A stretch of 64,000 nt of DNA. It comes from Octopus vulgaris (taxonomy: Eukaryota). Numbering within the stretch: position 1 is the stretch's first letter; each line of letters opens with the position of its first letter. The stretch spans positions 117,676,001 through 117,740,000 of the forward strand of contig OX597815.1 in assembly GCA_951406725.2 (NCBI GenBank). The letters run 5' to 3'. This document shows positions 22,228 to 24,356 of the stretch, piece by piece. The position numbers were made by a program.

Positions 22228-24356
22228 TTATAAATAAGGATAATATCGATATTTAAATATCGATATTATCAAGTGGCCAGCATGGGAAAAAATACCATAC
22301 AAAGGTAATAATTTTTTACAACTAAAAATAAGGGTGTCTGAGAGACACCACCATGCCGAAATAGCAGTCAAATCCCTGACTCTAAAAATCACCTTAAATG
22401 TTCATATCGCACCATGAGATAAGACAGAGGGACAAAATAGACTAGCAAAAAGATATTACCGAATAATTCAAGATCCTGGATTTCTAGCTTTGCTTTAAAT
22501 AATCTTTGCCGTCGTCAGTTGAATATATCAGAGCACATAAATACAAATATATATATGCAGAACAAACGTTATACTTACATATACGAACGCCCATACATAC
22601 ATATATATGCACGTATGTACAAGGCCAGTTTAAATTGTCCGCCAAACACCTCATAAGCACGATATGGTCAAAATGAACACCGCAGTGAATATAGTGACGA
22701 ATTATATAAATCTATAAATAAGGATAATATCGATAAATATCGATATTATCAAGTGACCAGCATGGGAAAAATACCATACGAAGGTCATAATTTTTTACAA
22801 CTAAAAATAAGGGTGTCTGAGAGACATCACCATGAACATTTAAGGTGGTTTTTAGAGTCAGGGATTTGACTGCTATTTCGGCATGGTTTTGTCTCTCAGA
22901 CACCCTTATTTTTAGTTATATATATATATATATATATATGAGACATAAACATAGACTCCAGATAGATATTGCATTTAAGATAATATGAACGCTACTACTG
23001 ACACTAAATATTTATCTGGTATCTCTATGTTCATAACTTACCCCCTTTGTCGTTCGTTCTCTTATACTCTCTCTTCCTTTCTCTGTCACCCAGCCTTTTC
23101 TCTTCACGTTGCCATCGCCTCCTCCTCATAACTGCTACTACTACTAATACTACTACAAGCGTAAATATTGTTATTCTTCGAGAGAAACGCCGAATAATGC
23201 CTTTGAGAATTTAGTTTCGTCTCTCCAAAATGTTTATGTTTAAATCCCAAACGGAGTAATAAAGTAAGATTAAATCAACTGTACCCAACCCCTAAAAGAT
23301 GTTGACTTTATATGAAATGGAATCCTTATTATTTAGAGCGGAAGTGTCCACGCAATTGGGACCTTGGATTTTTTTTTTTTTTCTTTTTTCATTTTCGTTT
23401 AATACAAGTTCGCTTCACTTACATTACTAATGCCCTTTTGAAAAGCATAAATGTTACTGTGTCGTTTTTTTTTTTTTAATTGTTTCAGTCATTTGTCTGC
23501 GGTCTTGCAGGGACACCGCCTTGAAGGGTTTTGGTCTAACAAATCGACCCTAGGCTTCTTGTTTTTTTTTTTTTTTTGATCTAATACTTAATCTATAGGT
23601 CTCTTTTGTCGAACCGCTAGGTTGTTACGGGGGAATTAACCACACCAACACTGGTTGTATGTATTATATGTATGTATATAATAAATGGCAAGTTTGTGTC
23701 TGAATTTGTTACTTTAACTCCTCCGAGGCTATCCAACAGACTTTGATGAAACTTGACACGTGGGGTGGGGGCCTTATGCCCATGCGGTCACTTACGCACT
23801 TGGAATTTTTAAAAAATCGATTTTTCAAAATTCGTAAAATTTCGGCATTTATCGCACTAGCCGTCGTGACATCAGTATGACGAAAAATGCCGAAATTTGA
23901 CGAAAAATGTTTCATGGGTATAAACATACAGCTTATTAATGGTAATCTACTTAGCATTTGCTAATTCTGCATTTCAATGCGAATTGTTTTGATTTGCAAA
24001 AACTTATTATTTCAGTTCGTTGTTTTAATTCCCCAGAGTTTCAGGTTTTGATTAGGTAAGAGCATTTTATTTCTCAAGCAAAATTAAGGCATTATAGACA
24101 CTAGCCGTCGTGACATCAATTTGACGAAATCTGCCCCAAAGCGTAAAATTTCGCCATTTTACGCACAAGCACAAAAATGACAACGACACGTGTTCGGTAC
24201 CAGACTTTCCTCATTTTTTTCGTCAAATTGGTCCTACCCATTAATATAGATTTTAAAATTTTAGAAAAATGTCGAAAGTTGACGAAATATGCTTCATAGC
24301 TATAAACAGACAGCTTATTAATGGTAATTTATTACCGGGTACCTCAGCTACTATAC

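What the first reader, a model, noticed from the sequence alone, without database searches (positions are those of the whole stretch)
22229..22917. One insertion showing the full architecture: direct repeat, HHR and 5' inversion
Seen: ~480-bp unit, ~125-bp direct repeat, HHR with AUC triplet and 6-bp stem I (extendable past a bulge by gatat/atatc), then an 86-bp inverted copy joined at a 3-nt atg microhomology. No coding capacity. Established: PLE insertions often have partial tandem and inverted 5'-truncated pLTRs. Inference: a tandem or circular HHR RNA was reverse transcribed past one unit and the second end was formed by template switching.
Basis: partly seen in the sequence, partly recalled or inferred. 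Interest (0 to 1): 0.7.

Follow-up and report, generated by a model that had tools for sequence, protein, structure and literature searches.

The report
Non-coding Penelope-type retroelement insertion in (TA)n
A dead, non-coding retroelement copy sits in a TA microsatellite with the tandem-plus-inverted layout typical of Penelope-like elements and a degenerate hammerhead-like motif; it is an ordinary member of a known kind, though its ends are informative.

Summary
There is a 480-bp unit, a 122-127-bp direct repeat (92.9%), and an 86-bp inverted copy (96.5%) joined at an atg overlap. There is no ORF.

The hammerhead is only a motif, on the minus strand at 22524-22466. Its core, 6-bp helix I and short near-palindromic helix III are intact. 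Such a motif is expected 0.025 times per shuffled window. But helix II is poor, no Rfam hammerhead model matches at E<=10, and the ribozyme fold is disfavoured (-0.7 vs -9.9 kcal/mol).

The insertion lies between two (TA)n tracts. Its RNA strand is the minus strand (22 vs 6 G.U pairs).

A homologous insertion at 30384-30616 and an analogous one at 6260-6698 have the same layout. In all three the inverted copy ends, against (TA)n, at one site (T2) 85-91 nt upstream of the 3' end (T1).

This matches the published architecture of Penelope-like element insertions: partial tandem, inverted 5'-truncated copy, one-sided tail, AT-rich target. No RT or GIY-YIG ORF is attached.

Verdict: a non-autonomous, retrozyme-like, PLE-type insertion; a new member of a known kind.

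The parts
22154..22228 (.). Left (TA)n target tract, abutting the element's 3' end (T1)
   Evidence: TRF 22154-22236
22229..22708 (-). Full 480-nt unit (RNA sense = minus strand), GC 33.8%
   Evidence: Minus-strand RNA MFE -142 kcal/mol, z -7.1; plus strand -95.1, z -3.2. 22 vs 6 G.U pairs.
22229..22319 (-). 91-nt 'tail' between the 3' terminus T1 (22229) and the second terminus T2 (22320). It is present in the forward copies and absent from the inverted copy.
22239..22270 (-). Hairpin 1: perfect 14-bp stem with a 4-nt loop, about 10 nt from T1
   Evidence: self-complementary 32 nt, 100%; -15.3 kcal/mol, z -5.5
22320..22405 (-). Segment of the unit that is duplicated in inverted orientation. 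It starts at T2 (AACTAAAAATAAGGG).
22333..22349 (-). Hairpin 2 (GGTGTC-TGAGA-GACACC) immediately inside T2. It is broken in both other copies.
   Evidence: -10 kcal/mol, z -2.0
22399..22447 (-). 3' arm of a long RNA stem that pairs with 22622-22666
   Evidence: fold; duplex -41.7 kcal/mol in minus sense vs -26.1 in plus sense, each reached by 0 of 500 shuffles
22466..22524 (-). Hammerhead-like type I motif: helix I 22524-22519 / 22471-22466, CUGACGA 22518-22512, GAAA 22484-22481, AUC 22474-22472. Predicted cleavage between 22472 and 22471.
   Evidence: for; against
22622..22666 (-). 5' arm of the long RNA stem
22709..22834 (-). Upstream 5'-truncated partial copy (pLTR-like), a copy of the 3'-terminal ~126 nt of the unit
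22832..22834 (.). atg shared by the partial forward copy and the inverted copy (inner junction)
22832..22917 (+). Inverted 5' copy (RNA-sense sequence on the plus strand). Its outer end at T2 abuts (TA)n.
22918..22940 (.). Right (TA)n tract
30384..30616 (-). e30, a homologous 5'-truncated insertion between (TA)n tracts. Forward part 30384-~30540, 4-nt spacer, then an inverted copy whose outer end at 30616 corresponds to forward 30471 (T2, 87 nt from T1).
   Evidence: Homology to e22: local score 46 vs shuffles 20.7+-3.1, 0 of 1000. Single-sequence nhmmer is weak, E 0.23.
6260..6698 (-). e6, an insertion with the same architecture between (TA)n tracts. Arms 6345-6516 / 6529-6700 (172 nt, 99%), 12-nt spacer, left arm starting 85-87 nt from T1.
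   Evidence: Sequence similarity to e22 and e30 is not significant (633 and 582 of 1000 shuffles reach it); profile nhmmer E 2.9e-4.
38955..39512 (-). e39, an unrelated insertion carrying the window's only Rfam-called hammerhead (39018-39094, minus strand). It is also TA-flanked, with an inverted copy on the 5' side (self-complementary 39283-39521, centre 39402).

Best explanation
The stretch 22229-22917 is one old, inactive insertion of a small non-coding retroelement. It is of the kind mobilised by Penelope-like element (PLE) machinery: a non-autonomous, retrozyme-like element.

Its RNA is the minus strand. It is a ~480-nt, strongly self-paired unit carrying a hammerhead-like motif that is now non-canonical.

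Proposed mechanism:
1. An endonuclease cut a (TA)n microsatellite.
2. One DNA end primed reverse transcription at an AU-rich patch just 3' of hairpin 1 (terminus T1, 22229). It copied a multi-unit RNA for 606 nt, which is 1.26 units, giving the full unit plus the upstream partial copy.
3. The other DNA end carries a copy that starts at a second defined site, T2 (equivalent to 22320, 91 nt upstream of T1), and runs 86 nt in the opposite orientation.
4. The two products were joined head to head at a 3-nt atg overlap by a template jump or microhomology join.
5. The 91 nt between T1 and T2 therefore occur at one end only. This is the PLE 'tail'.

Shown here: the repeats, the junction, the flanks, the strand asymmetry, and the recurrence of T1/T2 at other loci.
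Inferred: the priming order, the two-ended priming, the multi-unit template and the PLE enzyme.
For: Architecture: partial tandem, then an inverted 5'-truncated copy. (TA)n lies on both flanks.

Recurrence: of 39 inter-(TA)n segments of 60-2500 bp examined, 3 (e6, e22, e30) have an inverted repeat whose outer arm touches the right tract at distance 0. Their left arms start 87, 105 and 87 nt from the left tract; for e22 that is 91 nt from 22229.

Homology: e22 and e30 are homologous at collinear offsets 34-106 from T1 (0 of 1000 shuffles). Their inverted copies begin at the same aligned site, AAC/ACAAC-T-A-AAATAAGGG.

RNA strand:
- Minus RNA folds at -142 kcal/mol, z -7.1.
- Plus RNA folds at -95.1, z -3.2.
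- The folds hold 22 vs 6 G.U pairs.
- A non-repetitive 45-bp stem scores -41.7 vs -26.1.
This is the same strand as the hammerhead-like motif, which chance gives 0.025 times per window.

Substitution divergence is similar for the direct pair (4-5 in ~125) and the inverted pair (3 in 86), as expected for one event.

Literature:
- Craig et al. 2021 (PMC8557442, passages): PLE insertions are partial tandems with an adjacent inverted 5'-truncated copy and a tail often at one end only. They show microsatellite bias, (TA)n in Naiads. Non-autonomous derivatives form pLTRs.
- Frangieh et al. 2024 (PMC11167929, main text read): a purified PLE protein cuts AT-rich DNA, cleaves and extends both strands, and starts reverse transcription at two internal sites whose interval is the tail. 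It uses unprocessed multi-copy RNA, and hammerhead cleavage is not needed.
Against: - No PLE protein is attached. No GIY-YIG or PLE-type RT was found in 269 frames scanned, out of 342 stop-to-stop frames of >=60 aa (73 low-entropy frames were dropped before the scan). The only RT is a LINE-type remnant at 25880-28073.
- The 480-bp unit has no other copy in the window. The family therefore rests on one homologous fragment (e30) and one look-alike (e6) whose sequence similarity is not significant.
- The hammerhead motif fails Rfam, has a poor helix II, and its fold is disfavoured.
- The tail here is 85-91 nt, against 30-40 bp in the literature.
- T1 and T2 lie in AU-rich patches that could pair with a (TA)n primer. 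Frangieh et al. found initiation at a site not homologous to the cut DNA.
- In e30 and e6 the forward and inverted copies end within 4 and 12 nt of each other. Independent priming of two cDNAs does not predict this without an extra assumption, whereas a fold-back does.
- Part of the minus-strand fold comes from a TA/TG-rich low-complexity hairpin (22530-22620), which inflates the z-score.
Confidence: 0.62

Rival explanations
1. Fold-back (snap-back) model. There was a single cDNA, primed at T1. Its 3' end folded back on itself at a short homology and copied itself. The loop was 426 nt in e22, 4 nt in e30 and 12 nt in e6. Copying was halted at T2 by something bound to the tail, and the other DNA end was joined there. 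The element and the enzyme class are the same as in the best explanation; only the origin of the inverted copy differs.
For: In all three insertions the forward copy reaches at least as far as the inner end of the inverted copy: by 4 nt, 12 nt and 430 nt. The small spacers of e30 and e6 are what a hairpin turn gives. The atg/cat pairing at 22832-22834 and 22403-22405 allows it in e22.
Against: It needs an unexplained, precise stop at T2 in three separate events. The published in vitro data show two start sites and extension of both strands (PMC11167929), which gives T2 without an extra assumption.
Confidence: 0.22
2. The hammerhead-like motif is not, and perhaps never was, a ribozyme. The element is simply a structured SINE-like passenger of a (TA)n-targeting retrotransposon, and the motif is a decayed or chance resemblance.
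For: No Rfam hammerhead match at E<=10. Helix II has a C.A mismatch and 3 pairs closing a 19-nt loop. The hammerhead fold scores -0.7 vs an MFE of -9.9 kcal/mol. Only one copy of the motif region exists, so conservation cannot be shown. Craig et al. report PLEs that hold only an HHR core and still proliferate. Frangieh et al. find cleavage dispensable in vitro.
Against: Core + 6-bp helix I + 4-pair near-palindromic helix III is expected 0.025 times per 64 kb on both strands. It lies on the strand indicated independently by RNA folding and by the 5' inversion. [quoted passage not shown]
Confidence: 0.35
3. This is not a transposition product. It is a local rearrangement at a fragile (TA)n tract: replication template switching or break repair made a tandem duplication and an inverted duplication of pre-existing sequence.
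For: The 3-nt microhomology at the junction and the position between long (TA)n tracts fit such repair.
Against: A homologous sequence with the same terminus next to (TA)n, the same tail and the same inverted-copy end occurs 8 kb away (e30). The same geometry also occurs at e6. Recurrent identical ends at separate loci mean insertion, not local repair.
Confidence: 0.04
4. It is a DNA transposon (foldback/MITE with a TA target, or a Helitron), or an assembly artefact.
For: There is TA at both ends, long inverted repeats and a hairpin near one end. Craig et al. state that complex PLE-like structures are prone to misassembly.
Against: The inverted repeats are not terminal on the left. The 87-91-nt tail is part of the element, since e22-e30 homology spans it and it abuts (TA)n in both. 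The direct repeat crosses the would-be terminal repeat boundary. The ends lack the Helitron 5' TC and 3' CTRR (sequence; the Helitron motif is recalled, not looked up). The copies differ by 3.5-7%, unlike a collapsed or duplicated assembly of one sequence.
Confidence: 0.04

Closest known systems
Penelope-like element (PLE) insertions and their non-autonomous derivatives (Craig et al. 2021, PMC8557442; Frangieh et al. 2024, PMC11167929)
   Same: Partial head-to-tail tandem forming a pLTR. An inverted 5'-truncated copy directly at the 5' end. An extension (tail) at one end only. Insertion into AT-rich or (TA)n DNA, so target duplications cannot be read. A hammerhead motif in the sense strand. 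Evidence that the template extends beyond one unit.
   Different: No RT/GIY-YIG ORF, so the element is non-autonomous. The tail is 85-91 nt rather than 30-40 bp. The hammerhead motif is outside the repeated (pLTR) part and is non-canonical. Start sites lie in AU-rich patches that could pair with the (TA)n target, whereas the studied PLE starts at a site not homologous to the target. The PLE clade is unknown: (TA)n bias is reported for Naiads, which lack canonical hammerheads.
Metazoan non-LTR retrozymes (Cervera and de la Pena 2020, PMC7229834; Li et al. 2026 preprint, 10.64898/2026.07.22.740005)
   Same: A small non-coding unit of low GC (33.8%) with a strongly self-paired RNA, a type I hammerhead-like motif and a head-to-tail arrangement. 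The preprint proposes these are non-autonomous derivatives of PLE pLTRs.
   Different: The unit is 480 nt, against the reported ~150-450 bp repeats and 170-400-nt RNAs. There are only 1.26 copies with a single motif, so no unit can be released from this locus. The motif fails the covariance models. No circular RNA evidence is available here.
Minimal, dimeric PLE hammerheads (Cervera and de la Pena 2014, PMC4209133)
   Same: Type I topology. Short helix III with a small near-palindromic loop (AUCC-A-GGAU) that could pair between two copies. An unpaired base at the 5' end of helix II.
   Different: Described min-HHRs have a long helix II (6-8 bp). Here helix II is 3 pairs after a C.A mismatch, closing a 19-nt loop. 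Helix I is longer here (6 + 5 bp).
LINE-1 5' inversions by twin priming (recalled from the literature; seen here only as an abstract in the search listing, PMC2837659)
   Same: Head-to-head junction with short microhomology. The inverted part lies at the 5' end. Both DNA ends are proposed as primers.
   Different: In L1 the inverted segment comes from RNA just upstream of the forward segment and its start is not a fixed site. Here the inverted segment overlaps the forward one and starts at a fixed site, T2. There is no poly(A) and no readable target duplication.

Membership tests
PLE-type insertion (Penelope-like element machinery) | Partial head-to-tail tandem: a 5'-truncated copy upstream of a full copy (pLTR) | tested here: met
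   22709-22834 copies the 3'-terminal ~126 nt of the unit 22229-22708; 92.9% over 127
PLE-type insertion (Penelope-like element machinery) | [quoted passage not shown] | tested here: met
   22832-22917 is the reverse complement of 22320-22405, on the 5' side of the minus-strand element. The same holds at e30, e6 and e39.
PLE-type insertion (Penelope-like element machinery) | [quoted passage not shown] | tested here: met
   The 91 nt at 22229-22319 are absent from the inverted copy's outer end. The equivalent interval is 87 nt in e30 and 85-87 nt in e6. This is longer than the published 30-40 bp.
PLE-type insertion (Penelope-like element machinery) | Insertion bias for AT-rich or microsatellite DNA | tested here: met
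   (TA)n lies on both flanks of e22, e30 and e6, and on the left of e39 with a short TA run then (TATG)n on its right
PLE-type insertion (Penelope-like element machinery) | ORF with a telomerase-like RT and a GIY-YIG endonuclease (autonomous element) | tested here: not met
   No frame >75 aa in the element. There was no GIY-YIG hit in 269 of 342 window frames of >=60 aa scanned against Pfam. The element is therefore filed only as non-autonomous.
PLE-type insertion (Penelope-like element machinery) | 3'-end sequence similarity to an autonomous PLE of the same genome | not testable with these tools
The genome-contig scan (prokaryotes) gave 0 hits.
Hammerhead ribozyme, type I (Rfam RF00163 and clan CL00010) | Conserved core CUGANGA ... 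GAAA ... UH in type I order | tested here: met
   CUGACGA 22518-22512, GAAA 22484-22481, U-C 22473-22472
Hammerhead ribozyme, type I (Rfam RF00163 and clan CL00010) | Helices I and III flanking the core | tested here: met
   Helix I is 6 bp plus 5 bp beyond a 9-nt bulge. Helix III is 4 nominal pairs around a 1-nt loop, so 3 pairs with a 3-nt loop as a monomer. This combination occurs 0.025 times per shuffled window.
Hammerhead ribozyme, type I (Rfam RF00163 and clan CL00010) | Helix II closing the core at 10.1/11.1 | tested here: not met
   C.A mismatch at 10.1/11.1, then G.U, G-C, C-G closing a 19-nt loop
Hammerhead ribozyme, type I (Rfam RF00163 and clan CL00010) | Covariance-model score at or above the gathering threshold | tested here: not met
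   No hammerhead family is listed at the gathering threshold or at E<=10 in 1401 nt or 121 nt
Hammerhead ribozyme, type I (Rfam RF00163 and clan CL00010) | Self-cleavage at the predicted site | not testable with these tools
   Needs in vitro transcription of monomeric and dimeric constructs
Metazoan non-LTR retrozyme | Tandem repeats (dimers to multimers) of a ~150-450-bp unit, each with a type I hammerhead | tested here: not met
   1.26 copies of a 480-bp unit with a single motif. The source array, if any, is not in the window.
Metazoan non-LTR retrozyme | Low GC and a highly self-paired RNA | tested here: met
   GC 33.8%. MFE -142 kcal/mol, z -7.1, 65% of bases paired.
Metazoan non-LTR retrozyme | Expressed as linear and circular unit-length RNA | not testable with these tools
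   No transcriptome is available

The most novel reading that the evidence does not exclude
The three TA-flanked insertions would be genomic (in vivo) evidence for how PLE-type inverted 5' copies arise. The two DNA ends of one break would each prime reverse transcription at a different fixed site of the element RNA. These sites are T1 and T2, each an AU-rich patch just 3' of a G/C-closed hairpin with the shared motif CCUUAUU. The 'tail' would then be simply the T1-T2 interval, here about 90 nt, and a small non-coding hammerhead-like RNA would carry all the signals needed for it.
Probability: 0.35. Interest if true: 0.5.

Novelty: new member of a known kind. Interest (0 to 1): 0.3.

Why it matters
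PLE integration is the least understood of the eukaryotic retrotransposition pathways. The origin of its tandem/inverted ends and one-sided tail has so far been addressed in vitro for one element (PMC11167929).

A short non-coding family whose copies show both termini, the tail and the head-to-head junction in a few hundred bases is a convenient natural data set. Tabulating T1, T2 and inner junctions over all genomic copies would test two-ended priming against fold-back. It would also show whether the hammerhead-like motif is conserved.

In itself the locus is an ordinary decayed repeat with no sign of a host function.

Tried and rejected
1. Rfam at the gathering threshold on the whole window and at E<=10 on 1401 nt and 121 nt. 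No hammerhead match at the finding; the listed hits there are low-complexity noise (mir-297, Plasmodium RNAs and the like).
2. Looking for further copies of the 480-bp unit in the window by blastn and nhmmer. None beyond its own repeats. The related e30 was missed by blastn at E<=1e-3 and found only through a motif scan.
3. Looking for an attached or nearby PLE protein. Only a LINE-type RT (RVT_1 + zf-RVT) at 25880-28073 on the minus strand. Its best database relatives are ~55% identical, mostly unnamed ~1200-aa proteins, which did not identify the organism.
4. One exact-match scan of prokaryotic genome contigs with a 22-nt stretch of the element. 0 hits, as expected and uninformative.
5. Helitron and MITE readings were rejected on the end sequences and the asymmetric tail.
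6. Using A / A' / inverted-copy differences to tell which unit templated the inverted copy. Uninformative: at the two variable positions the three copies read CC, TC and AA.
7. e6 as a sequence homologue was rejected by the shuffle test. It is kept only as an architectural parallel.
8. Two scripts crashed and were corrected. A circular-RNA fold was dropped.

Not checked:
- Other copies in this genome, long reads and transcripts.
- Supplementary files of the cited papers, such as the PLE consensus lists of PMC8557442. They were not opened and may bear on which PLE clade is the partner.
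Full report
**1. What is there**

- A 480-bp unit (22229-22708) is followed by a second copy of its first ~126 bp (22709-22834). BLAST gives 22229-22355 vs 22713-22834 at 92.9% over 127, and copy spacing is 479-484 bp.
- This is followed by 86 bp (22832-22917) that are the reverse complement of 22320-22405, at 96.5% with 3 substitutions.
- The two homologies overlap by atg at 22832-22834.
- Both flanks are (TA)n: 22154-22228 and 22918-22940.
- The longest stop-to-stop frame is 75 aa of low complexity, and nothing matches Pfam.

**2. 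The hammerhead**

The motif is on the minus strand, 22524->22466: AUUCAA-CUGACGA-27 nt-GAAA-UCCAGGAU-C|UUGAAU. GAUAU/AUAUC extends helix I past a 9-nt bulge.

Evidence that it is more than chance:
- I scanned with a simple descriptor: core, helix I >=6 bp, helix III >=3 pairs.
- It finds two sites in the window, this one and the only Rfam-called hammerhead (39018-39094, minus strand, 34.9 bits).
- Shuffled windows give 0.025 sites on average, with 5 of 200 shuffles having any.
- The thresholds were chosen after seeing the motif, so the figure is generous. Even so, the motif is very unlikely to be chance in 689 bp.

Evidence against a working ribozyme:
- No hammerhead family matches at E<=10, in 1401 nt or in 121 nt.
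- Helix II is a C.A mismatch followed by three pairs closing a 19-nt loop.
- The hammerhead conformation is worth -0.7 kcal/mol against an MFE of -9.9.
- The region folds no better than shuffles.

Published PLE hammerheads are often minimal. They have short palindromic helices III, a bulged base at the start of helix II, low activity, and dimer or protein dependence (PMC4209133, passages; PMC11167929, main text). This motif is in that spirit, but its helix II is worse than any described there. I call it hammerhead-like, possibly decayed. The copies differ by ~3.5-4% in substitutions, so about one change is expected in 59 nt.

**3. Which strand is the RNA**

- The unit folds as minus-strand RNA at -142 kcal/mol (z -7.1, 0 of 100 shuffles).
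- As plus-strand RNA it folds at -95.1 (z -3.2).
- The minus fold holds 22 G.U pairs and the plus fold holds 6.

Part of this comes from a TA/TG-rich low-complexity hairpin. But a non-repetitive 45-nt stem (22622-22666 with 22399-22447) also scores -41.7 in minus sense against -26.1 in plus sense.

So the RNA strand, the hammerhead-like strand, and the strand on which the inversion is 5' and the partial copy is upstream all agree.

**4. Relatives in the window**

The unit itself is single-copy here. A motif scan led to three other insertions.

e30 (30384-30616) lies between (TA)n tracts.
- It shares collinear blocks with the 3' ~135 nt of e22 at the same offsets from the (TA)n junction.
- The local score is 46 against 20.7+-3.1 in shuffles, reached by 0 of 1000. 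Single-sequence nhmmer is weak, E 0.23.
- It is 5'-truncated after ~157 nt, turns with a 4-nt spacer, and runs back as an inverted copy.
- The outer end of that copy, against (TA)n, is CAACTTATAAATAAGGG. That is the site aligned with AACTAAAAATAAGGG, where e22's inverted copy ends.

e6 (6260-6698) has the same geometry.
- It has (TA)n on both sides, 172-nt arms at 99%, and a 12-nt spacer.
- Its left arm starts 85-87 nt from the left junction.
- Its sequence is not significantly similar to e22 or e30 (633 and 582 of 1000 shuffles). Profile nhmmer gives E 2.9e-4.

e39 (38955-39512) is an unrelated element that carries the Rfam hammerhead. It also starts at (TA)n and has an inverted copy on the 5' side of the hammerhead strand.

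Of 39 inter-(TA)n segments examined, exactly three (e6, e22, e30) have an inverted arm touching the right tract.

**5. Two termini**

The forward copies begin at T1, about 10 nt 3' (RNA sense) of a hairpin. The inverted copies begin at T2, which is 91, 87 and 85-87 nt upstream. The interval T1-T2 is therefore present at one end of each insertion only.

This is the 'tail' of PLE insertions, described together with partial tandems, adjacent inverted 5'-truncated copies and microsatellite bias by Craig et al. 2021.

Frangieh et al. 2024 showed for a purified PLE protein:
- cleavage of AT-rich DNA;
- cleavage and extension of both strands;
- initiation at two internal RNA sites whose interval equals the tail;
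- use of unprocessed multi-copy RNA;
- no need for hammerhead cleavage.

**6. Mechanism**

Best reading (confidence ~0.6 for the class of element, lower for the steps):
1. A (TA)n break.
2. A first cDNA primed at T1 on a multi-unit RNA and extended 606 nt.
3. A second, short cDNA primed from the other DNA end at T2.
4. A head-to-head join at atg by template jump or microhomology.

The main rival for the last steps is a fold-back of the single cDNA. It better explains the 4- and 12-nt spacers of e30 and e6, but it needs an unexplained stop at T2.

'Second end formed by template switching' is at best half the story. A circular template is untested. The 3' end is 243 nt from the predicted cleavage site, so a hammerhead-cleaved linear monomer primed at its end was not the template.

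**7. What it is not**

- No RT or GIY-YIG is attached or present in the window. The nearby RT (25880-28073) is a degenerate LINE.
- It is not a MITE, foldback element or Helitron.
- It is not a local repair product, because the same ends recur at separate loci.
- An assembly artefact is unlikely given 3.5-7% divergence between the copies, but reads could not be checked.

**8. Novelty**

The architecture, the target, the non-autonomous derivatives and the link between retrozymes and PLEs are all in print:
- PMC8557442 and PMC7229834 (passages);
- PMC11167929 (main text);
- preprint 10.64898/2026.07.22.740005 (abstract and section 14).

This is a new member of a known kind. The modestly new point is the recurrent T2 end with a ~90-nt tail in a tiny non-coding family.

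A prokaryote scan gave 0 hits.

Noticed in passing
window 39018-39094 (-), element 38955-39512: This is the only Rfam-called hammerhead of the window (RF00163, 34.9 bits vs gathering 34). It has about 35 extra nt between helix II and the GAAA strand. It sits in a TA-flanked insertion with a self-complementary 5' part (39283-39521, centre 39402).
   Followed up: partly
window 30384-30616: e30 is a homologous, 5'-truncated copy of the finding's family. It has a fold-back (4-nt spacer) and the same inverted-copy end site as the finding.
   Followed up: yes
window 6260-6698: e6 is a young insertion (arms 172 nt, 99% identical) with the same tail-plus-fold-back geometry between two (TA)n tracts. 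Its sequence is not significantly similar to e22 or e30.
   Followed up: partly
window 22052-22153 and 29407-29526: Two copies of a short repeat in opposite orientations, 88.6% identical over 88 nt. Each is embedded between (TA)n tracts. They share one end and differ at the other, like 5'-truncated retrocopies. They have no hammerhead core. The first lies only 75 bp left of the finding.
   Followed up: partly
window 25880-28073 (-): Degenerate LINE-type reverse transcriptase (RVT_1 + zf-RVT) broken by an in-frame stop and frame changes. An (ATT)n tract at 25604-25684 lies on its 3' side. Its best database relatives are ~55% identical.
   Followed up: partly
window 23454-23658 and 11 other sites (e.g. 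8406-8565, 21156-21340, 29550-29732, 46366-46537, 60744-60922): A SINE-like repeat of ~180-200 bp, 67-95% identical between copies, often next to microsatellites.
   Followed up: no
window 14716-15202 and 52809-53176: A 184-bp tandem repeat (2.6 and 2.0 copies, 88% matches), present twice in opposite orientations.
   Followed up: no
whole window: Very high microsatellite load: 82 TRF rows at score >=80 and 41 (TA)n tracts of >=16 bp in 64 kb. GC is 36.1%. No protein-coding exon was recognisable by Pfam in 269 frames.
   Followed up: no
window 22233-22239, 22327-22333 (and 30480, 30601): The 7-mer AATAAGG, directly followed by a hairpin stem, occurs just inside both termini T1 and T2 of the finding and at T2 of e30. 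It may be a shared start-site signal.
   Followed up: partly
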